From contig JBEKSO010000001.1 in the NCBI GenBank assembly GCA_049516935.1, forward strand, positions 1-40,088: a stretch of DNA of 40,088 nucleotides, written 5' to 3'. Below, in pieces: positions 12,285 to 36,228 of the stretch (positions are counted from its first letter, which is position 1; each line of letters opens with the position of its first letter). The notes beneath the pieces are model-generated. The model ran no database searches, was not told the origin of the DNA, and saw only the letters and a list, made by a program, of their open reading frames with translations. The translations under genes were made by a program, and so were the position numbers. The stretch comes from Thermoguttaceae bacterium. Lineage in GTDB: Bacteria > Planctomycetota > Planctomycetia > Pirellulales > Thermoguttaceae.

Positions 12285-15200
12285 ATGAGTCCGACCAAAC
12301 GAACCAGTCATGATCGTCAGATATTTGCCTTTGACAGCAAATTTATAGTACGAGCGATGCGGATTATGCTTCCGGCGGCGATTATTTTGGCGCTGGTTTG
12401 CTCCGCCCCCGGGGCGGCAGTGACTTGGACCGGCCCCCTCGGCGGTCTATGGTCTACCGGCACCAACTGGTCGAGCACGCCTACCCCGCCGGACTCGACC
12501 AGCGACGTGAGTTTCACAAGCGCTACCGCGGTTACCAACACCAACGTCACCAACGAGGTAGGTTCGGGCATCACCACAGTCGAGAGCCTGGCTTACAGCC
12601 AAACAGGGACTTCCGCGACGGTTTACCACACTACCCAGATCGACGGCACGCTGAAGGTTGCCGGTTACAGCGCCGCCTCTAGTCCGAGCTGGGCCAACGG
12701 CAATATTACGCTCTACGCATACGCCACGGCCGGCAACACGAGCGTCATTGACGACACCGTTATCAAGGGCGGCGGCACGCTGGACCTATCTAATTCCCTC
12801 GGCGGCAATACCAACGGCGACATAATTGTAACTGCGAATTCTGGCAGCGACGGGACGCGCGTCGGGGAGTTGGATCTCACCGGCCTATCCTCGTTCAATG
12901 CCAATGTCGATCAAATCCTTATCGGCTATAGCCAGGGCGGCACAAGCAGCCGGCCCCTGGGCGTTATGTACCTGGCGCAATCGAACACGATTACGCTGAA
13001 CAACACGACCGGCGTGAGTTCGAACAACGTCAATGCCGGCTTGGTGATCGGCTATGCGGGCAACGACGTCAATTCGCATACTTCCTCGCTGTATCTCGGT
13101 CAAACCAACGTGATAAACGTGCAGAACGTGGTTGTGGGCGGCCAGCGGCAATATGGCACCATGTCTTTCAACCCCGCCTTCCTCGGCGGCAGCACGGCCC
13201 CAACCCTGGTGATGCGGGGCCAGACCGGCACCGACGATAGCCGCGTGTCCACAATCTCAATCGGAGACCTTTCCGACGCCGGAGATGTCAGTAATCGAGC
13301 CAACGGAACGATGGATCTCACGGGCGGCCACGTGGACATAAAAGTGGATACGATTTATCTGGGCAAAACCGCCGCCGCTAGTTCCAGCCGCAACTATGCC
13401 GTGCCCGGGACACTGAATTTCGATAATGGCACTATCGACGCCACGACCATATTGTGCGGCGATCAGACTGCCACTAACAATCATAATTCCCAAGGAACGA
13501 TTAGCGTGTCGGGCACGGGGAACCTGATAATCGGGAGCCCCGGCCTAACGCTGGGGTTTTTCACCGCAACAAACGGGTCATCCAACGCCTCGGGAACGTT
13601 GAATATAAGAAACAGCGCCACGGTTTCCTCGACTGCGGCCAATATCGTCGATGGCGGCGGCAATTCGGTTATCAGCATGTCCGGCACCAGCACGCTGAAT
13701 ATGGGAGGGCACAACATCGGCACGGTCGACAATCCGATCGACAGCTTCACAATCAGCGGCGGAACAATCAATGATTTGGGCGCCCTGGCGATGGCCAAAT
13801 TCTACCCCAGGACCACCTTCTCGCTCACCGCTAGCGGCGGGACGACGATCACCGCCGGCGGGTTGATCGATATGCGCAATGGAGGCGCTAACACGTTCAC
13901 CTCCGGAAATTTGACGCTGAAGGGATCGGCGACGATGTATTTTGAACTTTCGGACAGCACTAGCGGCACAAACGACCAGATCAATTTGGACTCGATCGCG
14001 TTTAACGGCGGCACCTTGTCGGTAAACGTCTCCCCGTTGGTTGGCAATTTCTCCACCGGCACTTACGCATTGATGAAATTCGCATCCCAGCCCGCATCGA
14101 CGCCTGGTTATGCGATCAGCGACACTACTCGAAACACATACCCGAACCTTCCCCAGATTAACCCCAGCGCGGGAGGCGGCTACGAGTTGGATCTCTGGGG
14201 CATTTCAGCCGGCACCCCCCATGGCCTGACCTGGAACGGCACAACGACGGGCACCTGGGACCTGAAAACAACCTCGAATTGGAATTGGACCAGCGGCACC
14301 GGCTTCAACGGGCTCGCCGACAAGTACTATGACCTTGACAACGTTACCTTTGGCGATCTCGGCGCTACGACTACGATTACAGTCAGCAATTCCGGGGGCG
14401 CCGGTATGGTGCCCGGGTCGGTAACGGTCAGTTCGGACCATGATTACACGCTTAAAGGAAGCGCCTCGACCGACAAAATCAGCGGTTCCACCGGAATCAC
14501 TAAAACCGGGAGCGGCACGCTGACAATCAGTCTTACCAACGACTACACGGGTGCGACGCATATCAACGGGGGCAAAATAATCCTGGGCAATGCCAGCTCG
14601 CTGGGCAGTTCGTCCGCCTCGGTATATGTCAACGGCGGCACGTTGGACTTGAACGACCAGCAGCTCGGCGGCACTCCCAAGGCGGTTTACATTCAAGGCA
14701 CGGGCATGCTCGTGGGCGGCGTGGGCATCGGCGCGATCGTCAACAACGCCACCACCGCGCCGGGTTCGAACCAATACGACATAATCAACCTGATCCTAAC
14801 CGGTAATGCCACCATCGGCGGCACTTCGACTACGAACAGCACCTATTCCGGTTTGCCTGGGGGTAACGTAGGCCTTTGGAAGGTGCACGGGCCGTTCGGC
14901 TCATCGACCCTTGGCTCGCAAGGGGCTTACAGCTTGACCAAGGTTGGCAACAACATGGTTTGGCTGATGAACACCACGACCAATTCCAGCTTCCTCAACC
15001 TCAATATCAACCAAGGCATTTTGGGCCTGGACGGAACGACGTCTTTGGGCGACCCGAACGGCACGATTACAGTCGACGGGACCTCGGGAGGGGCGATGTT
15101 GTGGCTCAACGACGTGTCGATCATCCTTAACAAGAACGTCGTGCTTACGGGCGGCAGCAACGCCTTTATCCACGCCCGAGGAAACATCGCACCAACCGAT

Positions 15201-18200
15201 AATACGATCTCGGGCACCGTGTCCATAGGTTCTACCGGGGGTTTCGGGGGCACAATTGATACCGGAAGCGCGCAGGCCGGCAGCTATAGTTCCAGCTCCA
15301 GCGCGCGATTGAACATCAGCGGCGTGATCCAAAACTACGGCGGCAGCGGGGGGACCTTGATCAAGAGCGGACCGGGCACGCTAAACGTGACCAACTCCGG
15401 AAACACTTTCAACGGTATGACAAATCTCACCGGCGGCACGCTGATCAACACCGGCGCACTTCTCGGCGGGGTTACCATGTCTACCGGCACTACGCTGGTC
15501 GGCACAGGCTCGTTTGGCGGCACGGTCACCGACGCCTCCGGCGCGGTCATCTCTCCAGGCGCCACAAGCGCAACCGGCTCGGTGGGCACGCTTGCGATGA
15601 ACAATCTTACTCTGACCGGCGGCGGCCAGATCAATTACGACCTGGCCACCTCGAGCGGGAACGACTTGATATCCCTCGGCGGCACCCTCTCGCTTACCGG
15701 AACCACCGAGATCAACATACCCAACATAAATAATATAGCAAGCGGCACCTATACCCTGATTACCTGCGCTGGTAAAAGCGGCGGCGGAGGTTTTCACCTC
15801 TTGAACGTGCCCCAGAATACGCGGCGGCTTTTCACCATCGACAATGCACCTACGACACAGGTCACCTACAGCCTGATCGGCACGGCCGCTTCACTGGAGT
15901 GGAAAGGCGACGGAGGCAATAACTACTGGGACGTGGTTACCACCCAGAACTGGCTAAACAACGCCGCGCCTGACATCTTTTATAACTTCGACGGCGTCAC
16001 TTTCAACGACGACTACATGAACCAGACGGTCGCCCTGAATCAGGACGTGGCGCCCAGCTCGATCACCGTAGACTCGGCCAGGACTTACACTATCACAGGT
16101 CAGCATAAGATCACAGGCACCACAGGGCTGACTAAGTCCGGGAGCGGCACGCTGATACTTGCCAACGGTTTCAGTTCCAGTAACGATTTCTCCGGCCCGA
16201 TCCAAATCAACCTCGGCACATTGCAGGTCGGCGACGGCTCAACACCCAACGCCCTTATCGGGACCGGAGCGATTACCAACAACGGCCAATTGCTTTTCAT
16301 ACAGACTGAGAGCCACACAGTTGCCAACGCGATCTCCGGGACCGGCAGCGTTGAGCAGAGAGGATCCGGCGTTCTTACCCTTTCCGGCTCCAACAGCTAC
16401 AGCGGCATAACAACGATTACCACGGGCACGTTGCAGGCCGGCAGTAACACGGCCTTGGGCACCACGGCCGGCGGCACGACGATTGCCGACGGCGCCACGC
16501 TGGACGTCAACAACATGAACCTGGGCGACGAGACGGTTACCGTCCAGGGTCAAGGCGTAAACAGCGCAGGCGCTATTGTCAACAATAACATGGCCACCAG
16601 CACTGTTGCCCAAAACGCCCTTCGCTTTGTCGTCCTGACAGGCGATACGACCTTCGGCGGTCAGGCCACCGATAGCGGTTCCGGCCCGATTGCCAATTCC
16701 GGCCGTTGGGAGATCCGCGGAGTTCCAGCGGAGTTGGCAACCATCAACACCAACGGAAATTCCTATAACATCACCAAAGTGGGCAACAACCAGGTTTCCT
16801 TTGTGCGGCTTACCGCCGATAGCGCCCTGGGCGACATTCACATCGGCGATAGCAACACTTATACGCCCGGAGGAATTTTAGCCCTGATAGCAAACACCTC
16901 CGTGGGCGACCCCGCCAAGACCATAACCGTGGCATATAACTCTACCTTGCAGCTCGAGGGTCTGACTATTCCGCTGGCCAAAAAGATCTCGCTCGATGGC
17001 GGTACTTTGTATGCCAATGCCATCTCCTCCCCTACCGCCACCGACAACACGATTCTCGGCACAGTCACCATTACGAATAATGGCGGCACCCTGAACACCG
17101 GAGGGATACGCAGCGACGTCCCTACCGCAAGCGCCAACGTAGGCATGATCATCAACGGCGTGGTCAGCAGCTCGAGTTCGGCGGCCATTTTAACGAAGAT
17201 GGGGCCGGGCACCGTAACCCTGGCAAATGCGAATAATACCTTCAACGGAACAGTAAATCTCAATGACGGCACTTTGATCGTCAACGGTTCCTTGACAGGC
17301 GGCATTACCATGGCCGCCGGCACCGTAACTACTACCCTGGCCGGCAACGGCACCATCCTTGGCGCGGTTTCTGACTATTATTCCACGAACATCGCTCCGG
17401 GCGCTACCGCCGGCGTCGGATCGGTTGGCATTCTTAACATTGGAGGATCCGGTGTCGGTCTCACGCTCGGCGGCAGCGGTAAGATCACTATGGATCTGTC
17501 AAATGACCCGGGCAACAGCGACCTGATAAATGTAAACGGTCCGCTGAACGTGGCCGCCGGAGTCACCAACGTCAATATCAATATTATCGGTGGCTATTTG
17601 CAGGGCAGTCCCGGCGGCACTCTCTACCCGTTGATCCACTACGCCTCTATCACCGGAGATGACTCTAATTTTGCAGCGCCGTCCACCGACTCGCGGCAAA
17701 CCTACAGCATCTATAAAGACGACTCTGCGATGAACATCGATCTCAAAGTAGTCGGCTCGGCGGCCAACCTGACGTGGCACGGCGACGGAAGCGCAAACGC
17801 CTGGGATGTCAAAACCACCACGAACTGGACAGGCGCCGATTCCAAATTCTGGACCGGCGACCAAGTCCTCTTTGACGACAGTTCGCCGAACCTTACCGTG
17901 AATATCGCTCCCGCTACAGTGATCCCCGGCACGATCACGGTCAGCTCCGGCCACAATTACATTTTCGCGGGGACGGGCAGTATCAGCGGCGGCACGTCGC
18001 TGACAAAGAGCGGCACCGGCTCTTTGACTATCAACACCTCTAACACCTACTCTGGCCCGACAATCATCAACCAGGGTACAATTATCCTCGGCTCTGCCAA
18101 CGCGTTGGGCAACGCTACCGGCACCATCACAATCAACGGGGGCACGCAGGGAAGCCCCGGGGGCACGCTGGACCTCAACACCCAACAGCTTTACGCCCAA

Positions 18201-19241
18201 CCGATCATCGTCCAAGGCGTGGGCGTGGGCGGCAATGGCGCGATCATCAACGGCAACGCCGCCGTCGCGCCTGGCGCTACGCAATACGACGTGAGCAACG
18301 TCACACTAATCGGCAATACGACTATCGGCGGCACTTCCACCACGGACACCATTTACAATAGCGGTCTGCCCGGAAGTCAATATGTCGGTCGCTGGTCGTT
18401 GCGCGCTCAATCCGGAGTAACGCCGGTCCTGAGCACAAACGGACATGCTTACACCCTTACCAAAGTCGGCAACAATCAGATCATGTTGATCAATGTCACG
18501 GCCGACACCGCGTTGGGCGACGTCTTCGTCAACAAAGGCGTGTTATCGCTGGAAGGCACAACCTCTTTGGGCAATTCGGGCGCCATCACGGTCGACGGCA
18601 GTGCCCTTGGCCAGCCCGCCGGCGGCTCAATGTTGCAGTTCCGAAACCTAACCGTGCCGTTGTCCAAGAACGTCTCGCTTCAAAATAACGGCCAGATCTA
18701 CTCCCTGCAAAACGGCTCCGATACCAGCACCTCGAATACGGTAACCGGAACGGTCACCATCGGCAGCACCGGCGGCCAATTCAACGCCGGCGGCGTGCGC
18801 GCCGACTATGCCTCGGGTACCGGCGCGAATTCCAGCGCGATAATGACCATTCAAGGCAATATCATCGGAACGGGCAGCCTGACCTGTCCCGGGCCCGGCA
18901 CCGTGTTTATTACCAGCTCGACTGTCAGCTACAGCGGCAATACAACCATCAACTCGGGTACGCTCCAGATCAATAGCGCCCCTGGCGCGACTGTTGCCTT
19001 GCACGCCGTCTCAGGCAGCGGCACGCTTGGCATAGGCAACGGCGCCGCAACCTCTGTAACGGCCGATTCCGTCAAAACGGGCACCTTGACCATCGGCGCG
19101 GGCGCCACGTTGACCATTAATGCGATCCCGGGCGGCCCGTCTGCGGGTTTGGGCCCGATATCGCCGGTTCCAGAACCGGCCACCTGGGCTATGCTCATGC
19201 TGGCAGCCATGGGACTGGGAATTTACTGGCGCCGCCGGTAA
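12285..19241 (+). CDS. giant (2318 aa) autotransporter-associated beta-strand-repeat (PATR) surface protein with PEP-CTERM sorting signal
   Basis: Many copies of the PATR-type block (e.g. LTKSGSGTLTLSGSNSYSGITTITTGTLQAG), very Gly/Thr/Asn/Ser-rich. The C-terminus VPEPATWAMLMLAAMGLGIYWRRR is PEP motif + TM + Arg cluster. A strong RBS precedes 12285. The signal-peptide-like MRIMLPAAIILALVCSAPGAA starts at the alternative ATG at 12357. Confidence 0.9.
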   Translation: MSPTKRTSHDRQIFAFDSKFIVRAMRIMLPAAIILALVCSAPGAAVTWTGPLGGLWSTGTNWSSTPTPPDSTSDVSFTSATAVTNTNVTNEVGSGITTVESLAYSQTGTSATVYHTTQIDGTLKVAGYSAASSPSWANGNITLYAYATAGNTSVIDDTVIKGGGTLDLSNSLGGNTNGDIIVTANSGSDGTRVGELDLTGLSSFNANVDQILIGYSQGGTSSRPLGVMYLAQSNTITLNNTTGVSSNNVNAGLVIGYAGNDVNSHTSSLYLGQTNVINVQNVVVGGQRQYGTMSFNPAFLGGSTAPTLVMRGQTGTDDSRVSTISIGDLSDAGDVSNRANGTMDLTGGHVDIKVDTIYLGKTAAASSSRNYAVPGTLNFDNGTIDATTILCGDQTATNNHNSQGTISVSGTGNLIIGSPGLTLGFFTATNGSSNASGTLNIRNSATVSSTAANIVDGGGNSVISMSGTSTLNMGGHNIGTVDNPIDSFTISGGTINDLGALAMAKFYPRTTFSLTASGGTTITAGGLIDMRNGGANTFTSGNLTLKGSATMYFELSDSTSGTNDQINLDSIAFNGGTLSVNVSPLVGNFSTGTYALMKFASQPASTPGYAISDTTRNTYPNLPQINPSAGGGYELDLWGISAGTPHGLTWNGTTTGTWDLKTTSNWNWTSGTGFNGLADKYYDLDNVTFGDLGATTTITVSNSGGAGMVPGSVTVSSDHDYTLKGSASTDKISGSTGITKTGSGTLTISLTNDYTGATHINGGKIILGNASSLGSSSASVYVNGGTLDLNDQQLGGTPKAVYIQGTGMLVGGVGIGAIVNNATTAPGSNQYDIINLILTGNATIGGTSTTNSTYSGLPGGNVGLWKVHGPFGSSTLGSQGAYSLTKVGNNMVWLMNTTTNSSFLNLNINQGILGLDGTTSLGDPNGTITVDGTSGGAMLWLNDVSIILNKNVVLTGGSNAFIHARGNIAPTDNTISGTVSIGSTGGFGGTIDTGSAQAGSYSSSSSARLNISGVIQNYGGSGGTLIKSGPGTLNVTNSGNTFNGMTNLTGGTLINTGALLGGVTMSTGTTLVGTGSFGGTVTDASGAVISPGATSATGSVGTLAMNNLTLTGGGQINYDLATSSGNDLISLGGTLSLTGTTEINIPNINNIASGTYTLITCAGKSGGGGFHLLNVPQNTRRLFTIDNAPTTQVTYSLIGTAASLEWKGDGGNNYWDVVTTQNWLNNAAPDIFYNFDGVTFNDDYMNQTVALNQDVAPSSITVDSARTYTITGQHKITGTTGLTKSGSGTLILANGFSSSNDFSGPIQINLGTLQVGDGSTPNALIGTGAITNNGQLLFIQTESHTVANAISGTGSVEQRGSGVLTLSGSNSYSGITTITTGTLQAGSNTALGTTAGGTTIADGATLDVNNMNLGDETVTVQGQGVNSAGAIVNNNMATSTVAQNALRFVVLTGDTTFGGQATDSGSGPIANSGRWEIRGVPAELATINTNGNSYNITKVGNNQVSFVRLTADSALGDIHIGDSNTYTPGGILALIANTSVGDPAKTITVAYNSTLQLEGLTIPLAKKISLDGGTLYANAISSPTATDNTILGTVTITNNGGTLNTGGIRSDVPTASANVGMIINGVVSSSSSAAILTKMGPGTVTLANANNTFNGTVNLNDGTLIVNGSLTGGITMAAGTVTTTLAGNGTILGAVSDYYSTNIAPGATAGVGSVGILNIGGSGVGLTLGGSGKITMDLSNDPGNSDLINVNGPLNVAAGVTNVNINIIGGYLQGSPGGTLYPLIHYASITGDDSNFAAPSTDSRQTYSIYKDDSAMNIDLKVVGSAANLTWHGDGSANAWDVKTTTNWTGADSKFWTGDQVLFDDSSPNLTVNIAPATVIPGTITVSSGHNYIFAGTGSISGGTSLTKSGTGSLTINTSNTYSGPTIINQGTIILGSANALGNATGTITINGGTQGSPGGTLDLNTQQLYAQPIIVQGVGVGGNGAIINGNAAVAPGATQYDVSNVTLIGNTTIGGTSTTDTIYNSGLPGSQYVGRWSLRAQSGVTPVLSTNGHAYTLTKVGNNQIMLINVTADTALGDVFVNKGVLSLEGTTSLGNSGAITVDGSALGQPAGGSMLQFRNLTVPLSKNVSLQNNGQIYSLQNGSDTSTSNTVTGTVTIGSTGGQFNAGGVRADYASGTGANSSAIMTIQGNIIGTGSLTCPGPGTVFITSSTVSYSGNTTINSGTLQINSAPGATVALHAVSGSGTLGIGNGAATSVTADSVKTGTLTIGAGATLTINAIPGGPSAGLGPISPVPEPATWAMLMLAAMGLGIYWRRR

Positions 19242-19467: not shown

Positions 19468-21189
19468 CTACTGCTTGTGCATCGCTTGTTCGATCTGGCC
19501 GATCACGGCCGTGGCAAGGCGATGGGATGCCGTTCTTTTGCCGATCGTGATTTGTTTCCCGGCGCCGTAGGCGACGACGATATTGTAGTAAGCGGTCTGG
19601 CCCGATTGCATCCCTTGGACAGGTTCGATTTTGGCGACGTCGGAAGCATCGACCCAGTGAGTTTTGCCCAGTCCGAAAAGTCCGCCGGTGACCGACAGGC
19701 CTTGCGGCGATACGTCCACGGCACTTTTATAGAACCACATGTCAGCCACAAATAATAAAAGCAGCACGTCGAACAGGCCGAAAACGATGGGAAAGAAGAG
19801 TGGCGCCTGCAAGTAAATCAATACCACGACCATGCCGGACAACAAGAGCCAGAACGCCGAAAGCGCCAGCGCACTACCCGGATTCCGGCCCATGGGGAAG
19901 GTGAATTTGAAGCCCTCGCCGCTTGGCGACGGCTGCCGGTAGACGCCCGCATCGTGAAGGTCGCGCTCGGGATTCGGCGGGAGGGCATACTCGGCCATCA
20001 CGCTGGAATCGGCAACGAAGTTGGCATTGCTTTCCGCGGTTTTAAACACGGGCACGTCGAAGGCGGCGCTGTAATCGACTCCCGGCACCTTCGCTTTAGC
20101 CGCCAGACGCCAGATGATCTGATTATCCGGCGCCGTCTCGTCGGTCGGACGGCACTCGTAAGGGATGGCGAATAGAACGGGGATAGCCGTATGGTCGGGA
20201 TCGTTTTGCAACAAATCGCGGCCCACGACCTGGTCGTCCTGCCAAAGGACATGTTCCGATGTGCTGCGGCTCTTGCCGCTGCCGGTGGTCACCCTATTGA
20301 TGCAGTTTAACGTGATCCGAAAGCCGTCTTCGGGCAGAACCTTGGCGGAGGTGCGGACCACGCCGGCAATTTGCCCGCCGATCACGCCGGGTACGGATGC
20401 CATCTGGAACACTGATTGACCGAACTTGCGCCACCGCAGCACCGAGTATGTCGCCCATACTATGAGGCCCAGCCCCACTATGGGAAATATTACTCCGATG
20501 AGTGCCAGCCAATTGCCTTTACCGAGCACTTCGCCCGGAAGCACGAACAACAGCGGAGCGGAGATCACGTTCCAAAGTGCGGCAAAGGCCAGCGAGAACA
20601 TCATGGCCGTGTGGTTTGATGAGACGACCTTGCCTTCGGCCCAATCTTGTTTCCAAAGCCAGGGTTCATCGGGATGAGCGGCCGCGAGCGCCGCTTCGAC
20701 CCGGGCCTTGCGCCGGCCCAGCAGGCAGGCGGTCAGTATGCCAAAGCCCGCCCCGCCGAATATAAGTACGAATATCGACTGGAAGCCGAGCATTTCCCAG
20801 CGCAGATCGCGGAACAAGATGGCTTCATCGGGCCGCTGTGGATCGACGTAACAGTGGAAGGGTTTGCCAGATTTCCGGCATTCGCTCAGTTTGCGATACA
20901 CGTCCTGATGGAATGAGCCGATATTGTCCGAGCCGTAAAAGCTAACCCGCGTTCCCGTGTATTTCTTGTTACCGTACTGGTACGTGTACTGGGCCGACAC
21001 TTCATAGGTGGCGGTTTTTCCTTTGTTGACTTTAAGGTCTGCGCGGACGATTTTGGCCGGCACTTCTTCCCAGCCCCGCATTTTCAAATGGGCGATGACC
21101 GTCCAGCCCATCCACGCTCCGAATCCCACGCCGACGGCGGCAAAGGGCAGAGCGAACAGTATCAAAAAACCAAAACCTTTCTTAATCAT
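19468..21189 (-). CDS. DUF3592 domain-containing polytopic membrane protein
   Basis: The N-terminus has the DUF3592 layout: TM, then a beta-rich stretch (GWEEVPAKIVRADLKVNKGKTATYEVSAQYTYQYGNKKYTGTRVSF), then TM. Further TM clusters follow, then a central soluble region and a C-terminal soluble ~90 aa. The ORF-track start at 21228 is TTG; ATG candidates are at 21222 and 21189 (MIKKGFGFLILF...). Confidence 0.6.
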   Translation of the reverse strand: MIKKGFGFLILFALPFAAVGVGFGAWMGWTVIAHLKMRGWEEVPAKIVRADLKVNKGKTATYEVSAQYTYQYGNKKYTGTRVSFYGSDNIGSFHQDVYRKLSECRKSGKPFHCYVDPQRPDEAILFRDLRWEMLGFQSIFVLIFGGAGFGILTACLLGRRKARVEAALAAAHPDEPWLWKQDWAEGKVVSSNHTAMMFSLAFAALWNVISAPLLFVLPGEVLGKGNWLALIGVIFPIVGLGLIVWATYSVLRWRKFGQSVFQMASVPGVIGGQIAGVVRTSAKVLPEDGFRITLNCINRVTTGSGKSRSTSEHVLWQDDQVVGRDLLQNDPDHTAIPVLFAIPYECRPTDETAPDNQIIWRLAAKAKVPGVDYSAAFDVPVFKTAESNANFVADSSVMAEYALPPNPERDLHDAGVYRQPSPSGEGFKFTFPMGRNPGSALALSAFWLLLSGMVVVLIYLQAPLFFPIVFGLFDVLLLLFVADMWFYKSAVDVSPQGLSVTGGLFGLGKTHWVDASDVAKIEPVQGMQSGQTAYYNIVVAYGAGKQITIGKRTASHRLATAVIGQIEQAMHKQ

Positions 21190-21349
21190 GGGACAATCAC
21201 GACTCCTGGCTGGAAGAACCATCGGCAAGTTTATTGGTCTAATTTACGCCCGGCCGCGCTCGGGGAATCTAAGGTGGAATCGGCTTGCAAGGGATGGAAA
21301 AAAAGTTGGAATAAATTTGTCCGTCATGCGACAGGCTTCGCGGCCGCAA

Positions 21350-23665
21350 TCATTTCCGTTTCCAGGTTGTGCCCGAGGGGGCGTCTGTAAGGTGGATGCC
21401 CATCGTCTGGAGTTTTTCTCGGAGGGAGTCGGCCTTTTTAAAATCTTTCGTTCGGCGGGCGTCGTCGCGGGCTTCGACAAGGCTTGCCACCTGCTCGTCG
21501 GGCTGTTCGCTCCGGATGTCGATGACATCCAGGACTTTGTTGGCCTGGCGCATGAAGTCAAGGACCCCTCGGGCCTGATCGCCGTCCAATTCTCCGCCGC
21601 CCAGCAGTCGGTTGACGTGACGAATAAAAGCAAAGAGCCTGCCTATAGCCTTGGGTAGGTTCAGATCGTTGTCCAAGGCGTTTTGCCAGCCTGCGCGGGT
21701 GGCGAACAGGGCTTGATCCAACTCGGGGCTGTGCCGGCCCGTGGTGTATTGCCCCAGGCGGGCGGCAAACTCGTTCAGGCGCGACACGCAATTCGCGGCC
21801 CGCTTTAGCTCTCCCACTGAGTAGTTCAGCACCGTGCGATAATGCGTGGCCAGCAGCCAGTAGCGGACCGTCGGTCCGTCAAAACCCTGTTCCAGGAGTT
21901 GCTCGAGGGTGAGATCGTTGCCGGCGGCGCGGCTTACTTTTTTACCGTCGGCCATGACCACTTCGCAGTGCATCCAAAGCTTAGCCAACGGTTTGTCCTG
22001 CAGGCCGCAGGCAATGGCGATCTCGTTGTCGCCGTGCGGGAAGGTGAGGTCGGTGCTGGCCGTGTGGATGTCAAATGGCTGGCCCAGGCAACCCACGGCC
22101 ATGCAAGCGCACTCCACGTGCCAGCCCGGCCTAGCGTTGCCCCAGGGAGTGGGCCAGAATATGCCGGCCTTGAGCTCGGCCAGCGTGGGACGCTTGAAGA
22201 GCGCGAAATCGCCCGGATTGTCCTTTTCGTAGTAGTCGTAGGTGGTCGATGAATCGCGCCGCATCCGCTTCGGCTCGATCCCGGACAGCCTTCCATAATC
22301 GGGAAAACTGTTGATCCTGAAGTAGACCGAGCGCAGCTTTTCGTAGGCCAGCCCTTTTTCCAAAAGACTGCGGGTCTGTTCGACCATGTCGTTGACGTGC
22401 TGGCTGGCCTTGGGATAGTGGTGCGCTCGCTTGGCGCGGAGGATATCCAGGCTTTCAAAAAAAACCTTTTCCCAGCGGGCCGTGAATTTTTGCAGGTTCT
22501 CTCCTGACTTGAGGCACTCGCGCACGGTGCGGTCGTCGATGTCGCCCAGGTTCATGGCATGCTTGACTTGATAGCCGCGATACTCGAGATAGCGCCTAAG
22601 CACGTCGGAAAAGACCACCCGACGGCAAAGGCCCAAGTCGGGAGGTCCGTCCAGGCTTGGCCCGCAGGAATAGATCGTCACCTTGCCGGGCGATACGGGC
22701 TCCAACTGTTCTACCCGGCCGGGCAGGGTGTTGTAGAATCGCAAGGGTTCCGGCACCGTATCGGAGACGAACAAAGAAGTGGAAAGGTAGCGTTCGCCCC
22801 CGTCCGGCAACAGGGCGACAACCGTGCCTTTGCCCAGCGTCCGAGCTTCGTCCAGGGCCACCTTCATGGCCGCCCCGGCGCTCATTCCCACAAAGATTCC
22901 CTCTTCTCTTGCCAGGCGTCTGGCGGCCTCATACGCCGGATCATCGTCCACGTGGACGATTGCATGAAGTTCTTCCGGCTTGAAGATCCCGGGTGCGTAG
23001 CTTTCCTTCATGTTCTTGAGGCCCTGGATTTTATGCCCTTTGAAGGGCTCGACGCCGACCACGCGGATGGCCGGATTTAGTTCGCGCAATGCCCGGGTGA
23101 TGCCCATCAGCGTCCCCGTGGTGCCCATGGTAATAACCACGACGTCGACCTTGCCCCCGGTGGCCTCCCAGATTTCCCTGCCGGTGCCGTAGTAATGTGC
23201 TTGCCAGTTGGCCTCGTTGTTGAACTGATCGACCAGGACATACTTTCCCGGTTCTTCGCGGGCCAGGCGATAGGCCTCTTCGATGGCCCCGTCGGTGCCC
23301 CGATAGCCGGGCGTCAGCAGGATCTGCGCACCGTAGGCCTTGAGAATCCGCTTGCGTTCCTCGCTTGCCGACTCGCTCATCGTGACCAGGAGTTGATAGC
23401 CCTTGACCGCGCAGACCATGGCCAGTCCGATGGCCGTGTTGCCGGAGCTGGCCTCCAACACGATCTTGCCGGGAACCAGCTCGCCGGTGGCCTCGGCTTG
23501 CTCGATCATCCTTAGGCCGATGCGGTCCTTTACCGACCCCCCCGGATTCATTAATTCGAGTTTGACCAAAACCTCGACGTCGGCCACCGGATTCATGCGG
23601 TTAATACGCACGAGCGGGGTGTTTCCAACCAGTTCCAGCACCGAATTGACTTTGATCGGCGGCAT
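21350..23665 (-). CDS. fusion protein: PLP-dependent cysteine synthase (CysK/CysM family) + full-length cysteinyl-tRNA-synthetase-like module with degenerate HIGH/KMSKS
   Basis: The N-terminal module has NTPLV, GGSVKDR (PLP lysine), SSGNTAIG, GTTGTLMG, MSAGAA and LPDGGERYLST. The C-terminal module has LRFYNTL..VTIYSCGPS, GWHVECACM, FPHGDNEIA and a CysRS-type anticodon-binding tail. The ORF-track start at 23695 is GTG; I prefer the ATG at 23665, preceded by AAGGA (MPPIKVNSVLELVGNTPLV). Confidence 0.85.
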   Translation of the reverse strand: MPPIKVNSVLELVGNTPLVRINRMNPVADVEVLVKLELMNPGGSVKDRIGLRMIEQAEATGELVPGKIVLEASSGNTAIGLAMVCAVKGYQLLVTMSESASEERKRILKAYGAQILLTPGYRGTDGAIEEAYRLAREEPGKYVLVDQFNNEANWQAHYYGTGREIWEATGGKVDVVVITMGTTGTLMGITRALRELNPAIRVVGVEPFKGHKIQGLKNMKESYAPGIFKPEELHAIVHVDDDPAYEAARRLAREEGIFVGMSAGAAMKVALDEARTLGKGTVVALLPDGGERYLSTSLFVSDTVPEPLRFYNTLPGRVEQLEPVSPGKVTIYSCGPSLDGPPDLGLCRRVVFSDVLRRYLEYRGYQVKHAMNLGDIDDRTVRECLKSGENLQKFTARWEKVFFESLDILRAKRAHHYPKASQHVNDMVEQTRSLLEKGLAYEKLRSVYFRINSFPDYGRLSGIEPKRMRRDSSTTYDYYEKDNPGDFALFKRPTLAELKAGIFWPTPWGNARPGWHVECACMAVGCLGQPFDIHTASTDLTFPHGDNEIAIACGLQDKPLAKLWMHCEVVMADGKKVSRAAGNDLTLEQLLEQGFDGPTVRYWLLATHYRTVLNYSVGELKRAANCVSRLNEFAARLGQYTTGRHSPELDQALFATRAGWQNALDNDLNLPKAIGRLFAFIRHVNRLLGGGELDGDQARGVLDFMRQANKVLDVIDIRSEQPDEQVASLVEARDDARRTKDFKKADSLREKLQTMGIHLTDAPSGTTWKRK

Positions 23666-24283
23666 TAAAAAATCCTTGTAAGTGTTTGCAGTCACTGCTA
23701 TTAGGCCGTTTTAGTAGTCACAGCCGCAAGCGATTAGTAGAGCAATAAGGACTTTCAAAGTCAAGATTCAATTATTTCCGCAAGCACGCGGAATTTGCTA
23801 TTGCCCGCAATCTCACGATCCCGTGCCGAGCGTTTCCACTGTGTCAGTTTTAAAGATTTAGCAGTGGTTATTCACCCGCGCCGCTCTCGCACTCGCGGCG
23901 GACGATCTTCTTATGGTGGGGGGGCGCATACGCCAATATTCCCCGTTGCGGGTGCCATTCACCCCCTTTCAAAGACCATAACGGCATGATAAATTAGTGG
24001 ACATCAGGCGATGGGGCCGCCGAAACAGTGCGTTTCCTTTCGCGGGGATACGGTTGTGGTCTTCGGCAATCCGTGACCCTGGTAACGAGGCAGCGTCCAC
24101 ATACCTAGCCGTGTTGCTTGCCGTGTAAGCCATCGGCTTCCCGGCGGGCAGTTCTTATGCTGGGTGTTTTCCATTTTTTCGTGATCCGCCGCGTGATGCG
24201 CTGCGCGTCGATGTCGGCGGTTTGCGTTGATCATAGGTATTGCGTGTTCCAACATTTTTCACTTGAAGCAAGGAGAACTAATC

Positions 24284-25306
24284 ATGTGTCACAAATTGAA
24301 TCAGATGGTTTTGGCGGCGGCGATAGTTTTGACAGCCGGTATGGTCTCGGCTAACGTATTCAACATGGGACCGGGTTTAACTAGCCTGGAAATGGTGCCC
24401 GTGGGCGATCCGGGCAATGCACCCAATAATCTCATAATGGTGCCACCAAGTCCCAGCGATAGCATCACTTACGATGGCTCGGTGGGCTACGCCTACAAAA
24501 TCGGCAAGTGCGAAATTTCCGCCGGGCAATATACGGAGTTTCTCAACGCCGTGGCGGGAAATTCGGACCCATACGGCCTTTACAATAGCTACATGGCAAC
24601 CACCAGAGCTGGCGGACAAATTACCAAAAGTGGCAGCGTTTACACGGCGGCCTTGCCGAACCAACCGGCGAATTGTATCTCTTGGGGCGATGCGGCACGG
24701 TTCTGCAACTGGATGGCCAACGGCCAACCTACTACGGGCGTCGAAGATTTCTCGACTACCGAAGATGGTTCATATTACCTCAACGTTACCGACTGGTTGG
24801 CGATTACGCGCAAACCAGGCGCTACCTGGTTTATCCCTACCGAGGACGAATGGTACAAGGCGGCGTATTACGACCCGAACAAAGGCGGTCCTGGAGTCGG
24901 CGGCTACTGGCTCTGGCCCACGAAGAGCGACGATTGCCCGAGCAACGAGTATCCCTCGTCGGGCACCAACAATGCAAATTATAACGCAGATACGCGTAGT
25001 AGCGGCCCACCGTACACCACCGAAGTCGGCTCGTTTGCCAACTCATTGAGCGCCTACGGTACGTTAGACCAGGGCGGGAATGTATGGGAGTGGAACGAAA
25101 CGGTCTTTCCCGAGTATTCGTCGCGTGGGGTGTGCGGTGGGGGGTGGTGGGATCCGGCCCCGTGGTTTAGAGCCGACCATCACTCATGGTTTGGCGGGGG
25201 CGACAACACGGGGTTCCGCGTAGCAGAGGTTCCTGAGCCCGGTAACATTACCTTGCTCGTGTGCGGTGCGATTGCCGGTTTGATCTGGTGGAGACGCCAG
25301 AGATAG
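24284..25306 (+). CDS. formylglycine-generating-enzyme (SUMF1/FGE-sulfatase) domain protein with PEP-CTERM anchor
   Basis: Family blocks are present: CISWGDAARFCNW, IPTEDEWYKAAYYD and GTLDQGGNVWEWNE. The C-terminus VPEPGNITLLVCGAIAGLIWWRRQR is PEP-CTERM. The ATG at 24284 is preceded by AAGGAG, and a signal peptide MCHKLNQMVLAAAIVLTAGMVSA follows. Confidence 0.8.
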   Translation: MCHKLNQMVLAAAIVLTAGMVSANVFNMGPGLTSLEMVPVGDPGNAPNNLIMVPPSPSDSITYDGSVGYAYKIGKCEISAGQYTEFLNAVAGNSDPYGLYNSYMATTRAGGQITKSGSVYTAALPNQPANCISWGDAARFCNWMANGQPTTGVEDFSTTEDGSYYLNVTDWLAITRKPGATWFIPTEDEWYKAAYYDPNKGGPGVGGYWLWPTKSDDCPSNEYPSSGTNNANYNADTRSSGPPYTTEVGSFANSLSAYGTLDQGGNVWEWNETVFPEYSSRGVCGGGWWDPAPWFRADHHSWFGGGDNTGFRVAEVPEPGNITLLVCGAIAGLIWWRRQR

Positions 25307-35916: not shown

Positions 35917-36228
35917 TGCTCATCCTTTGTTGCCCCTTTACAACCAGGTGTGCGCTCAACGAATTCAGGGAATCCTCCGCTTAACCGGGATTCCCCTGGA
36001 AGATATAGCTTTTATTCAACATCAAGCCAGATGGGAAGATGCAAAAAGTGTACTTTACCCGTGAAAATGCCGGAATAATCGGCAATTTCCCTACGATAAG
36101 CGACGACTGGCCTAGGGCCCCTGCTTTGCTAAGTCCTAGGCAACAAACACCGCGAGTTTCTTTCAGCCCTTCCAATTGGGTCGTAGTAAATTAAAATACG
36201 TCCGTACTTACAAACCTGAGTGACCAAT

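What the first reader, a model, noticed from the sequence alone, without database searches (positions are those of the whole stretch)
21350..23665. Cysteine synthase fused in-frame to a complete cysteinyl-tRNA-synthetase paralog that has lost HIGH and KMSKS
One uninterrupted ORF joins two complete modules. The first is a PLP-dependent cysteine synthase (about aa 12-310 of the ORF-track protein) with GGSVKDR including the PLP lysine, SSGNTAIG, GTTGTLMG, MSAGAA and LPDGGERYLST. The second is a full-length class I CysRS-like module (about aa 318-781) with LRFYNTL...VTIYSCGPS, GWHVECACM, FPHGDNEIA and an anticodon-binding/C-terminal tail ending KADSLREKLQTMGIHLTDAPSGTTW. I aligned it by eye to canonical CysRS (YVCG.TVYD..HIGHGR and KMSKSLGN). 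The cysteine/zinc-pocket positions are retained: Cys in YSCGP, Cys in WHVEC, and His/Glu in PHGDNE. Both ATP-site signatures are replaced: HIGH becomes DLGL (22628-22639) and KMSKS becomes KKVSR (21929-21943). So a protein that probably still binds cysteine, and perhaps tRNA-Cys, but is unlikely to form Cys-AMP in the normal way is welded to the enzyme that synthesises cysteine. I know of no characterised protein with this architecture. Possible roles are all inference: product sensing or feedback on the synthase, substrate channeling, tRNA-dependent thiol/persulfide chemistry, or a diverged MshC-like ligase.
Basis: partly seen in the sequence, partly recalled or inferred. Interest (0 to 1): 0.7.

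Follow-up and report, generated by a model that had tools for sequence, protein, structure and literature searches.

The report
Cysteine synthase fused to dead CysRS
One gene encodes an apparently working cysteine-making enzyme fused to a copy of the cysteine-tRNA-charging enzyme that has lost its ATP site but kept its cysteine pocket and tRNA-reading residues; it belongs to a widespread family that no paper I could search describes, and it may link cysteine synthesis to cysteine or tRNA status.

Summary
Window 21350-23665 (- strand) is one 771-aa gene. It joins a CysM-type PLP cysteine synthase to a full-length CysRS-like module through a linker of about 8 residues. HIGH is replaced by DLGL. 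It is not an assembly artefact. More than 120 protein clusters and about 350 loci in species-representative genomes carry the same single ORF, and two lineages carry the two halves as adjacent genes.

DPANN-archaeal fusions keep intact HIGN and KMSKS. All sampled bacterial fusions have lost the second KMSKS lysine, and almost all the last HIGH position. The planctomycete copy is the most degenerate and nests inside Myxococcota/Desulfarculaceae fusions. Of 97 positions at least 90% invariant in canonical CysRS, 70 are kept, including the zinc/cysteine pocket and every invariant anticodon-domain residue. The 27 lost include HIGH, KMSKS and positions next to Asp229. dN/dS is 0.03-0.30 throughout.

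The best reading is a pseudo-synthetase that senses cysteine and/or tRNA-Cys and regulates the fused synthase, as HisZ does for HisG. This is inference. I could not test whether the same genome also has a canonical cysS.

The parts
21350..23665 (-). Whole coding sequence of the fusion protein: 771 aa from the ATG at 23665, stop codon at 21350-21352. The ORF tool extends it to a GTG at 23695.
22802..23635 (-). CysM-type PLP-dependent cysteine synthase domain (Pfam PALP, aa 21-298 of the 781-aa ORF). All catalytic motifs are intact.
23528..23530 (-). PLP-binding lysine (K56 in GGSVKDR).
22745..22771 (-). Short linker (aa 309-317, FVSDTVPEP) between the end of the synthase fold (..YLSTSLF) and the CysRS-like start (LRFYNTL). 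It has low AF2 confidence.
21794..22705 (-). CysRS-like Rossmann/CP core (Pfam tRNA-synt_1e, aa 331-634).
22628..22639 (-). DLGL in place of HIGH. It is conserved in more than 100 planctomycete-clade homologues.
21926..21940 (-). KVSRA in place of KMSKS.
22664..22666 (-). Cys344, equivalent to the E. coli Cys28 zinc ligand.
22109..22111 (-). Cys529, equivalent to the E. coli Cys209 zinc ligand, in GWHVEC.
22022..22036 (-). His554 to Glu558 (HGDNE), equivalent to the E. coli His234 and Glu238 zinc ligands. His235 is replaced by Gly.
22049..22066 (-). HTASTD in place of the canonical HGGGxD. Gly226 and Gly227, next to Asp229, are replaced.
21530..21688 (-). DALR_2 helical-bundle domain (aa 670-722).
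21362..21496 (-). CysS_C anticodon-binding alpha/beta domain (aa 734-778). The canonical invariants R423, R427, D436, R439 and D451 (E. coli numbering) are all retained.
23666..24226 (.). Upstream intergenic region shared with the divergent FGE-sulfatase/PEP-CTERM gene. There is no Rfam match, so no T-box or riboswitch was detected.

Best explanation
The gene encodes a two-module protein.

Module 1 is a catalytically intact CysM-type cysteine synthase: a PLP enzyme that adds sulfide, or another sulfur nucleophile, to O-acetyl- or O-phosphoserine.

Module 2 descends from a real cysteinyl-tRNA synthetase but is now a pseudo-synthetase. Its ATP/adenylate site has been dismantled: HIGH is DLGL, KMSKS is KVSRA, and the GG next to Asp229 is AS. 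Its zinc-thiolate cysteine pocket and its tRNA-Cys anticodon-binding residues are kept under purifying selection.

The most likely mechanism (inferred, not shown) is that module 2 no longer charges tRNA. Instead it acts as a ligand-sensing regulatory domain for module 1. It would bind the product cysteine at the zinc site, and probably tRNA-Cys through the anticodon domain, and so tune cysteine synthesis to cysteine supply or tRNA-Cys status. This is the logic by which HisZ, a HisRS paralog without adenylation activity, conveys histidine feedback to HisG.

The planctomycete copy was probably acquired by horizontal transfer from a Desulfobacterota/Myxococcota-type donor in which the module was already degenerate. 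A separate canonical cysS is therefore expected in the genome but was not verified.
For: Shown:
- Both modules are full length and sit in one frame.
- The same single ORF occurs in at least 120 90%-identity clusters from NCBI, JGI, ENA and Logan assemblies.
- It also occurs in about 350 loci of species-representative genomes. Of the 80 fetched, 75 are one full-length ORF (at least 730 aa), two are cut by a contig end (L015, L023), and three or four nanopore assemblies are split across reading frames (L016, L026, L064; L027 has an anomalous ORF call).
- Two independent lineages carry the halves as adjacent genes with 4-nt and 2-nt gaps (L081, L093). The partnership is therefore selected, whether the halves are fused or split.
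- The PLP lysine, the Asn loop, the Gly loop, the Ser at N1 and the family loop GHKIQGLKNM are conserved in 75 fusions.
- HIGH and KMSKS are degenerate in all sampled bacterial members, with many different replacements: R, Y, F, W, H, Q, S, P and D at the second-lysine position. This is the pattern expected when a catalytic site is released from constraint.
- Of 97 positions at least 90% invariant in canonical plus DPANN CysRS, 70 are kept. The 27 lost include positions 31-33, 37, 40, 226-227, 235, 241, 260, 267, 269 and 270.
- C28, C209, H234, E238, W205, H206, R423, A426, R427, D436, R439, G446 and D451 are kept. C28, H234, W205, H206 and the seven anticodon-domain positions are at 0.93-1.00 in both groups. 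Among the other bacterial fusions C209 falls to 0.93 and E238 to 0.66.
- dN/dS against 10 orthologues is 0.03-0.10 for the PLP domain, 0.04-0.16 for the CysRS-like core and 0.17-0.30 for the C-terminal part.
- TIGR00435 scores fall from 517 bits (DPANN) to 425 (T. atlanticus), 391 (split form) and 335 (window).
- In an NJ tree the planctomycete clade nests inside degenerate bacterial fusions.

From the literature: HisZ is a HisRS paralog without adenylation activity that mediates histidine feedback on HisG (PMC9437257).
Against: - No binding or kinetic data exist.
- The regulatory role is argued only from which residues are kept and which are lost.
- AF2 did not resolve the relative position of the two modules (pTM 0.53, linker pLDDT below 50), so no allosteric interface is seen.
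- HisZ lacks an anticodon-binding domain, whereas this module keeps it. That points to tRNA as a ligand and leaves room for tRNA-dependent chemistry instead of pure regulation.
- Some subclades have lost one zinc ligand (C209S or E238A), which weakens a universal 'cysteine sensor' reading.
- The KMSKS replacement here (K-V-S-R-A) is conservative at two positions, so residual ATP chemistry is not strictly excluded.
- I could not show that a canonical cysS exists in the same genome.
- The NJ tree has no support values.
Confidence: 0.4

Rival explanations
1. Bifunctional enzyme. The CysRS-like module still aminoacylates tRNA-Cys using a non-canonical ATP site, so newly made cysteine is channelled straight onto tRNA. 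It could even be the only CysRS in the cell.
For: DPANN members of the same architecture keep intact H[IV]GN and KMSKS and look like working bifunctional enzymes. The cysteine pocket and anticodon-domain invariants are retained here. KVSRA keeps the first Lys and has Arg at the second-Lys position. NCBI's pipeline names many members cysteine--tRNA ligase. A CysE-CysRS fusion with intact motifs also exists (P0181).
Against: Both His/Asn positions of HIGH are replaced by Asp and Leu. The GG next to Asp229, and His235, Gln241, Met267 and Ser270 are also replaced. Across bacterial fusions the second-Lys position takes many unrelated residues, and some members lose KMSKS completely or lose a zinc ligand. 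TIGR00435 falls below its cut-off. The planctomycete clade nests in already degenerate bacterial fusions, which implies acquisition on top of a resident cysS (tree unsupported).
Confidence: 0.12
2. tRNA-dependent chemistry. The pseudo-synthetase docks aminoacyl-tRNA-Cys (Sep-, Ser- or Cys-tRNA-Cys) and the fused PLP domain modifies the esterified amino acid. This would be a SepCysS-like route to Cys-tRNA-Cys or a route to a persulfide. Alternatively the module uses Cys-tRNA-Cys as an activated donor, as cyclodipeptide synthases use aminoacyl-tRNAs.
For: Anticodon-domain invariants are kept at 0.99 or above while the ATP site is lost, the pattern expected of a protein that still needs tRNA-Cys but not ATP. 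Aminoacyl-tRNA-using class I synthetase relatives exist (CDPS; PMC2922099). tRNA-dependent PLP cysteine synthesis exists in nature (SepRS/SepCysS; PMC5424206).
Against: The Asn loop ([ST]SGNT) and the DQFNN segment are invariant. From general knowledge of CysK/CysM, these clamp the free alpha-carboxylate of the substrate, which argues for a free amino-acid substrate rather than a ribose ester. SepCysS, SelA and SepSecS are fold-type I enzymes, and no fold-type II enzyme is known to act on aminoacyl-tRNA. No SepRS, tRNA-Cys gene or other pathway partner lies near any of 94 loci. Three of the four PLP-binding lysines reported for CARS persulfide synthase are missing here.
Confidence: 0.15
3. Structural passenger. 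The CysRS-like module binds no ligand and is kept only for folding, oligomerisation or localisation of the synthase, or to bind another protein.
For: No conserved operon partner points to a pathway. The C-terminal part evolves faster (dN/dS 0.17-0.30). One Desulfobacterales subclade has lost the last strand of the anticodon domain.
Against: Selection is focused on exactly the ligand-contacting residues of the ancestral enzyme: the zinc ligands, W205, H206, and R427, D436, R439 and D451. dN/dS of the core (0.04-0.16) is close to that of the catalytic PLP domain. A purely structural role would not preserve these particular positions across phyla.
Confidence: 0.15
4. A diverged MshC-like ATP-dependent cysteine ligase that makes a low-molecular-weight thiol from cysteine supplied by the fused synthase.
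For: MshC is a CysRS paralog (PMC2922099). The zinc/cysteine pocket is kept.
Against: MshC TIGR03447 scores 163.7 bits against a 485.1 cut-off. From general knowledge, MshC keeps its ATP motifs and lacks the anticodon domain; this protein does the opposite. No glycosyltransferase or deacetylase partners are nearby.
Confidence: 0.04
5. Artefact: two neighbouring genes merged by a mis-assembly or a frameshift error.
For: A few nanopore MAGs show frameshifted versions (L016, L026, L064 and probably L027). Split gene pairs exist in other lineages.
Against: The same uninterrupted ORF, with the same linker of about 8 residues, appears in over a hundred independent assemblies from four sources and in 75 of the 80 fetched loci as a full-length ORF of at least 730 aa.
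Confidence: 0.01

Closest known systems
HisZ-HisG (short-form ATP phosphoribosyltransferase with a HisRS-like regulatory subunit)
   Same: In both, a paralog of the cognate aminoacyl-tRNA synthetase has lost adenylation activity and is physically coupled to an enzyme that synthesises that same amino acid. HisZ mediates feedback by the amino acid (PMC9437257). Here the amino-acid pocket is retained and the ATP site is lost.
   Different: This module is class I (CysRS) rather than class II (HisRS). It is usually fused in cis rather than acting as a separate subunit. It partners the last enzyme of the pathway rather than the first. It keeps its anticodon-binding domain, which HisZ lacks (general knowledge). 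No regulation has been shown here.
Canonical CysRS (E. coli CysS, PDB 1li5/1u0b; TIGR00435)
   Same: The two align end to end (E 4e-80). They share the domain order: Rossmann/CP core, DALR helical bundle, C-terminal anticodon domain. The zinc ligands and 70 of 97 invariant positions are kept.
   Different: HIGH is DLGL and KMSKS is KVSRA. G226/G227, H235, Q241, T68 and K73 are replaced. The score is below the family cut-off. A cysteine synthase is fused at the N-terminus.
DPANN-archaeal PALP-CysRS fusions (for example P0136, Nanoarchaeota/Woesearchaeota; named 'cysteine--tRNA ligase' by NCBI; uncharacterised)
   Same: The architecture and length (about 760-780 aa) are the same, and the PLP domain carries the same H.IQGLKN loop.
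   Different: They keep H[IV]GN and KMSKS, and TIGR00435 scores 517 bits. They are likely true bifunctional enzymes. They are only 36% identical to the window's CysRS-like module.
CysM / O-acetylserine (or O-phosphoserine) sulfhydrylase B (E. coli and Salmonella 2bhs/2jc3; M. tuberculosis 3dki)
   Same: The N-terminal module matches at 3e-74. All PLP motifs are present. The CysM-type short loop has a basic residue (K in GLKNM) aligned with Arg220 of M. tuberculosis CysM.
   Different: Known CysM enzymes are stand-alone proteins of about 300 aa. The substrate preference (OAS or OPS; sulfide, thiosulfate or thiocarboxylate) is unknown here.
MshC and CysRS* (the two CysRS paralogs listed in the 2022 review PMC9437257)
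   Same: Both are CysRS-derived paralogs with a function other than standard Cys-tRNA-Cys synthesis.
   Different: Both are active ATP-dependent ligases that lack the anticodon-binding domain. CysRS* is linked to selC*/selB* genes. The window protein has the opposite pattern: the ATP motifs are lost and the anticodon domain is kept.
CARS/CysRS as cysteine persulfide synthase (CPERS)
   Same: It links CysRS with PLP chemistry on cysteine (PMC5660078, PMC10655014).
   Different: In CARS the PLP is reported to bind lysines of KIIK and KMSK within the synthetase itself. Here those are RTVR and KVSR, so three of the four lysines are lost, and the PLP sits in a separate classical fold-type II domain.

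Membership tests
Cysteine synthase CysK/CysM (TIGR01136 subfamily, Pfam PALP) | Score above the curated family cut-off | tested here: met
   TIGR01136 scores 358.7 bits against a 344.15 cut-off; PALP E 1.5e-72.
Cysteine synthase CysK/CysM (TIGR01136 subfamily, Pfam PALP) | PLP Schiff-base lysine, Asn loop (T/S-S-G-N-T), Gly-rich phosphate loop, and Ser contacting the pyridine N1 | tested here: met
   GGSVKDR, SSGNTAIG, GTTGTLMG and GMSAGAA are all present and are conserved in 75 fusions.
CysM equivalog (TIGR01138 / NF008735) | Score above the equivalog cut-off | tested here: not met
   353.7 bits against 394.2, and 321.3 against 413. The best PDB relatives are still E. coli and Salmonella CysM.
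Cysteine synthase activity (O-acetylserine or O-phosphoserine sulfhydrylase) | Measured beta-replacement activity | not testable with these tools
   This needs an enzyme assay.
Cysteine--tRNA ligase (TIGR00435 equivalog) | Score above the curated cut-off | tested here: not met
   335.2 bits against 340. DPANN fusion 517, T. atlanticus fusion 425, split form 391.
Cysteine--tRNA ligase (TIGR00435 equivalog) | Class I HIGH signature (H-x-G-H/N) | tested here: not met
   DLGL is aligned under HIGH. No H.G[HN] occurs anywhere in the protein.
Cysteine--tRNA ligase (TIGR00435 equivalog) | Class I KMSKS signature | tested here: not met
   KVSRA is aligned under KMSKS. There is no KMSKS-like string elsewhere.
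Cysteine--tRNA ligase (TIGR00435 equivalog) | Zinc/cysteine pocket (C28, C209, H234, E238, W205) | tested here: met
   All five residues are retained, at frequency 1.00 in the planctomycete clade.
Cysteine--tRNA ligase (TIGR00435 equivalog) | DALR helical bundle plus C-terminal anticodon-binding domain with its invariant residues | tested here: met
   DALR_2 and CysS_C are found. R423, A426, R427, D436, R439, G446 and D451 are retained.
Cysteine--tRNA ligase (TIGR00435 equivalog) | ATP-PPi exchange and tRNA-Cys aminoacylation | not testable with these tools
   This needs biochemistry.
MshC (mycothiol cysteine ligase, TIGR03447) | Score above the cut-off, and about 410 aa without an anticodon domain | tested here: not met
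   163.7 bits against 485.1. The module is about 460 aa and has DALR_2 plus CysS_C.
CysRS* (Desulfobacterales recoding CysRS) | Lacks the anticodon-binding domain, and is genetically linked to selC*/selB* (PMC9437257) | tested here: not met
   The anticodon domain is present. The window has no tRNA gene and no SelB-like gene among its ORFs.
CARS-type cysteine persulfide synthase | [quoted passage not shown] | tested here: not met
   KIIK is RTVR and KMSK is KVSR. Only the first lysine of KMSK is kept.
HisZ-like regulatory pseudo-synthetase (functional analogy, not homology) | Loss of the adenylation site with retention of the amino-acid pocket, and obligate association with the biosynthetic enzyme | tested here: met
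   The association, fused or as adjacent genes, is.
HisZ-like regulatory pseudo-synthetase (functional analogy, not homology) | Allosteric control of the partner enzyme by the amino acid | not testable with these tools
   This needs kinetics with and without cysteine or tRNA-Cys. AF2 did not resolve an interface.

The most novel reading that the evidence does not exclude
The CysRS-derived module is a dedicated sensor of tRNA-Cys (charged versus uncharged) and/or cysteine that allosterically gates the fused cysteine synthase. That would be a protein-level bacterial counterpart of T-box or GCN2-type sensing of tRNA charging, acting directly on a biosynthetic enzyme. Alternatively, it docks aminoacyl-tRNA-Cys for a fold-type II PLP reaction, which would be a new tRNA-dependent sulfur chemistry. 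Either way it would be a third functional class of CysRS paralog, beside MshC and CysRS*.
Probability: 0.3. Interest if true: 0.85.

Novelty: new variant of a known kind. Interest (0 to 1): 0.66.

Why it matters
Synthetase paralogs that have lost charging activity are a recurring source of new biology; examples are HisZ, YadB, PoxA, cyclodipeptide synthases and the HisRS-like domain of GCN2. For CysRS, the 2022 review I read lists only MshC and CysRS*.

This family is large. It is found in Planctomycetota, Thermodesulfobacteriota, Myxococcota, Acidobacteriota and DPANN archaea, and it includes a cultured species, Thermodesulfatator atlanticus. Databases label it 'cysteine--tRNA ligase' or 'cysteine synthase', and at least the first label is probably wrong for the bacterial members.

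The family offers a natural series running from intact motifs (DPANN) through partly degenerate ones (HLGx/KMSRS) to fully degenerate ones (DLGL/KVSRA). It also occurs in both fused and split forms. That makes the question of what a synthetase becomes once it stops charging directly testable.

If the module senses cysteine or tRNA-Cys, it would show how organisms control free cysteine, which is toxic, at the last step of the pathway. There is a practical point too: genome-based counts of aminoacyl-tRNA synthetases, and metabolic models that rely on them, should not count these genes as cysS.

Tried and rejected
1. Finding a canonical cysS in a fusion-bearing genome (the decisive test) failed.
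- No CysRS other than the fusion lies in the 80 genome-scan loci then in hand (the weak 640-aa hits are another class I synthetase) or among the window's large ORFs.
- Cluster look-ups of 30 representatives gave almost no taxonomy.
- The P0390 contigs come from an unrelated organism.
- The last homolog search, seeded with canonical P0134 (the sister of the bacterial fusion clade in the tree), returned Omnitrophota and Aminicenantes CysRS only.

2. Conserved gene neighbourhood gave nothing.
- Clustering the neighbours across 80 loci found only housekeeping genes (tmk, surE, thiL, HIT, groEL, an epimerase) and one unknown 340-aa protein confined to a Desulfobacterales subclade.
- Further contexts added nothing.

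3. A DsbD/AIR-synthase-like neighbourhood seemed to be shared by the window and Desulfobacterales loci. I dropped it because the window gene is purM whereas the Desulfobacterales one is thiL.

4. A ThiF/MoeB gene follows the split pair in L081, which suggested a CysO-like sulfur-carrier route. No ThiF homologue occurs in the other 83 loci then in hand or in the window.

5. The AlphaFold2 model of the whole protein did not fix the domain orientation (pTM 0.53). I therefore ran no fold search.

6. There is no Rfam element (T-box or riboswitch) in the window, and no tRNA-Cys gene near any of the 51 loci scanned.

7. I looked for intact HIGH or KMSKS placed elsewhere in the protein and found none.

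8. One literature query failed on syntax.

Full report
**1. The observation**

The window holds one uninterrupted ORF on the minus strand. The ORF tool lists it as 21350..23695 (781 aa) from a GTG. The consensus of 62 homologues begins MxPxKVN, and there is an ATG at 23665. Residue numbers below use the 781-aa ORF.

- Pfam finds PALP at aa 21-298 (E 1.5e-72), tRNA-synt_1e at 331-634 (1.9e-78), DALR_2 at 670-722 and CysS_C at 734-778.
- NCBIfam puts the N-terminal part above the cysKM cut-off (358.7 against 344 bits).
- NCBIfam aligns the C-terminal part over the whole cysS model (1-465 of 466) at 335.2 bits, just under the 340 cut-off.
- The HMMER alignment to E. coli CysRS (1li5, E 4e-80) and to 8qhp places DLGL under HIGH/HLGH and K-V-S-R-A under K-M-S-K-S. 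It also shows Cys28, Cys209, His234 and Glu238 retained.
All other quoted motifs and coordinates are correct.
- No HxG[HN] or KMSKS-like string exists anywhere else in the protein.

**2. Not an artefact, not a one-off**

A search of 5.8 billion proteins returned at least 120 clusters (65-97% identity) with the same PALP + tRNA-synt_1e architecture. They come from NCBI, JGI, ENA and Logan assemblies and are named Thermoguttaceae, Candidatus Anammoximicrobium, CSSED10-310 and Deltaproteobacteria.

A scan of one genome per species found 352 stretches that encode a relative. This is an underestimate, because the search patterns were taken from this protein. The 80 loci kept come from:

- Thermoguttaceae/Pirellulales, 74-98% identity (L006 is 98%)
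- Myxococcales and Desulfarculaceae, 61-66%
- Desulfobacterales, Desulfocapsaceae, Desulfobulbia and Acidobacteriota, 49-52%

Of the 80, 75 carry one full-length ORF of at least 730 aa. Two are cut by a contig end (L015, L023). Three or four nanopore MAGs are split across reading frames (L016, L026, L064; L027 has an anomalous ORF call). The linker between ..YLST.LF and L.FYNTL is about 8 residues throughout.

The window itself is typical planctomycete DNA: DUF1559, PEP-CTERM proteins, GH127, AcrB and MotAB. It has no tRNA gene, no Rfam element and no obvious operon partner.

**3. The wider family**

A search of 1.84 billion representatives with the CysRS-like module, followed by a second homolog search, showed a graded series.

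- DPANN archaea (Nanoarchaeota, Woesearchaeota, Nanobdellota) have PALP-CysRS fusions with intact H[IV]GN and KMSKS.
- All sampled bacterial fusions have lost the second KMSKS lysine. This includes the cultured Thermodesulfatator atlanticus (P0387: HLGL + KMSFS). The replacements are KMSRS, KMSRA, KMSYA, KMSFS, KKVDEN and others.
- Nearly all bacterial fusions have also lost the fourth HIGH position: HLGV, HIGQ, HLGN, HLGP, HLGL, H.GE. A few members keep it (for example P0290, HIGH + KMTRR).
- The planctomycete clade (DLGL/KVSRA, invariant in more than 100 members) is the most degenerate at HIGH.
- TIGR00435 scores fall in step: 517 (DPANN), 425 (T. atlanticus), 391 (split form), 335 (window).
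- Two lineages carry the halves as adjacent, nearly abutting genes. L081 has a 305-aa PALP gene, a 4-nt gap and a 468-aa HIGL/KMSRS protein. L093 has a 296-aa PALP gene, a 2-nt gap and a 484-aa HIGT/KMARS protein.
- A CysE-CysRS fusion with intact motifs also exists (P0181).
- In an NJ tree without support values, all bacterial fusions and split forms make one clade. The planctomycete group nests inside Myxococcota/Desulfarculaceae fusions, which suggests horizontal acquisition of an already degenerate gene. The DPANN fusions group with canonical CysRS.

**4. What is kept and what is lost**

The PLP module is the best-conserved part. The Schiff-base lysine, [ST]SGNT, GT[TS]GT, GMS[SA]GAA, PDGGERYLST and a family-specific loop GHKIQGLKNM are near-invariant in 75 fusions. 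Its closest solved relatives are E. coli and Salmonella CysM (3e-74). The Lys of GLKNM aligns with Arg220 of M. tuberculosis CysM (sequence verified; alignment). From memory, that residue is tied to O-phosphoserine use, so the donor substrate remains open.

For the CysRS-like module I took the 97 positions that are at least 90% invariant in 21 canonical CysRS plus 18 DPANN fusions. I compared them with 117 planctomycete-clade and 160 other bacterial fusions. Seventy are retained.

- Lost positions: 31-33, H37, N/H40, T68 (planctomycetes only), K73, I75, T115, G166, R168, W184, W194, G201, S210, G226, G227, H235, Q241, F250, L260, M267, K269, S270, G272, F342 and D348.
- These include the two class I ATP signatures, the residues next to Asp229, and a motif in the CP insertion.
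- Kept positions: C28, C209, H234, E238, W205 and H206 (the zinc-thiolate pocket), and every invariant position of the C-terminal anticodon domain (R423, A426, R427, D436, R439, G446, D451).
- C28, H234, W205, H206 and the anticodon-domain positions are at 0.93-1.00 in both groups. Among the other bacterial fusions C209 falls to 0.93 and E238 to 0.66.
- Some Desulfobacterota subclades have lost one zinc ligand (WHIES, or FPHHENAIA) or the last strand of the anticodon domain.

dN/dS against ten planctomycete orthologues is 0.03-0.10 for the PLP domain, 0.04-0.16 for the CysRS-like core and 0.17-0.30 for the C-terminal part. The whole protein is under purifying selection.

**5. Mechanism**

Shown: a synthase that is intact by all sequence criteria; a CysRS-derived module whose adenylation signatures are gone but whose cysteine pocket and tRNA-reading residues are preserved; and an obligate partnership, fused or split.

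Inferred: the module no longer charges tRNA. It serves as a sensor of cysteine and/or tRNA-Cys that regulates the synthase. This is analogous to HisZ, the HisRS paralog without adenylation activity that conveys histidine feedback to HisG (PMC9437257).

Retention of the anticodon domain, which HisZ lacks, points to tRNA-Cys as a ligand. It keeps a tRNA-dependent-chemistry rival alive. That rival is weakened by the invariant Asn loop, which from general knowledge clamps a free alpha-carboxylate. It is also weakened by the absence of any SepRS or tRNA partner near 94 loci. Residual aminoacylation cannot be excluded without biochemistry, but it fits poorly with the many unrelated residues found at the catalytic positions across the family.

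AF2 gave good domain models but no fixed domain arrangement (pLDDT 77, pTM 0.53, linker below 50).

**6. Comparison with what is known**

The 2022 review of synthetase paralogs lists only MshC and CysRS* for CysRS. The window protein fails the defining features of both: the MshC model scores 163.7 against 485, the anticodon domain is present, and there is no selC*/selB*.

Three of the four PLP-binding lysines reported for CARS persulfide synthase are missing. No PDB chain that matches either module is long enough to hold both: CysRS-type hits are 413-501 aa and PALP-type hits are 303-527 aa.

Seven full-text literature searches and seven papers read found no description of a cysteine synthase-CysRS fusion. 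Subscription-only literature was not searchable.

**7. Limits**

The decisive check, a canonical cysS in the same genome, could not be made. The tree is a distance tree without support values. All functional statements are inferences from sequence.

**8. Verdict**

It is a member of a large, uncharacterised and probably mis-annotated family: a new variant of the 'synthetase paralog recruited to amino-acid biosynthesis' theme. Interest is moderate to high.

Noticed in passing
L081:6553-7293 (JGI Ga0452215_034788): A ThiF/MoeB-family adenylyltransferase gene directly follows the split cysM-like + pseudo-cysS pair, which recalls the CysO/MoeZ sulfur-carrier route to cysteine in M. tuberculosis. 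No homologue occurs in the other 83 loci then in hand or in the window.
   Followed up: partly
P0181 (711 aa, ENA, on a 167-kb contig): A serine acetyltransferase (CysE, hexapeptide repeats) is fused to a CysRS with intact HIGH and KMSKS. This is a second kind of fusion between a cysteine-biosynthesis enzyme and CysRS.
   Followed up: no
P0182 (858 aa, Logan): A protein with a partial CysRS-like copy (starting at NITDIDDR) followed by a second, full CysRS with HIGN and KMSKS. It is an apparent tandem duplication within one ORF.
   Followed up: no
L028, L031, L033-L038, L040, L044-L047, L050, L051, L053, L054, L058, L060, L066, L070, L071, L076 (just downstream of the fusion, same strand): A conserved protein of about 340 aa with no Pfam match follows the fusion in 23 Desulfobacterales loci. 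These are the subclades whose CysRS-like module lacks the last strand of the anticodon domain. It may be a partner.
   Followed up: partly
L082:12279-13643 (Thermodesulfatator atlanticus ATXH01000003.1): A TRAM + tRNA(U5)-methyltransferase-family gene overlaps the 3' end of the fusion gene by 50 nt, which suggests co-transcription with an RNA-modifying enzyme in this species.
   Followed up: no
L017 and L020 (contigs JAMOVV010000171.1 and JAMOVV010000022.1): One Desulfarculaceae MAG carries two diverged copies of the fusion: KKASR and KVARP at the KMSKS position.
   Followed up: no
L016, L026, L027, L064 (Microflora Danica long-read MAGs): In three or four of these long-read MAGs the fusion gene is split across reading frames, while it is intact in short-read assemblies of close relatives. 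These are probably nanopore indel errors rather than pseudogenes.
   Followed up: partly
window 12285-19241 (+): A 2318-aa protein with passenger-associated-transport repeats and a C-terminal PEP-CTERM sorting signal. A second PEP-CTERM protein with an FGE-sulfatase domain lies at 24227-25306, divergent from the fusion gene.
   Followed up: no
window 19468-21228 (-): A DUF3592 membrane protein lies 121 bp downstream of the fusion on the same strand. It has no counterpart next to the fusion in any related locus, so it is probably not a functional partner.
   Followed up: partly
window 36208-37056 (-) versus 36220-37302 (+): Two long ORFs overlap on opposite strands. The + strand one is purM (TIGR00878, 407 bits). 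The - strand one has no family match and is probably spurious.
   Followed up: yes
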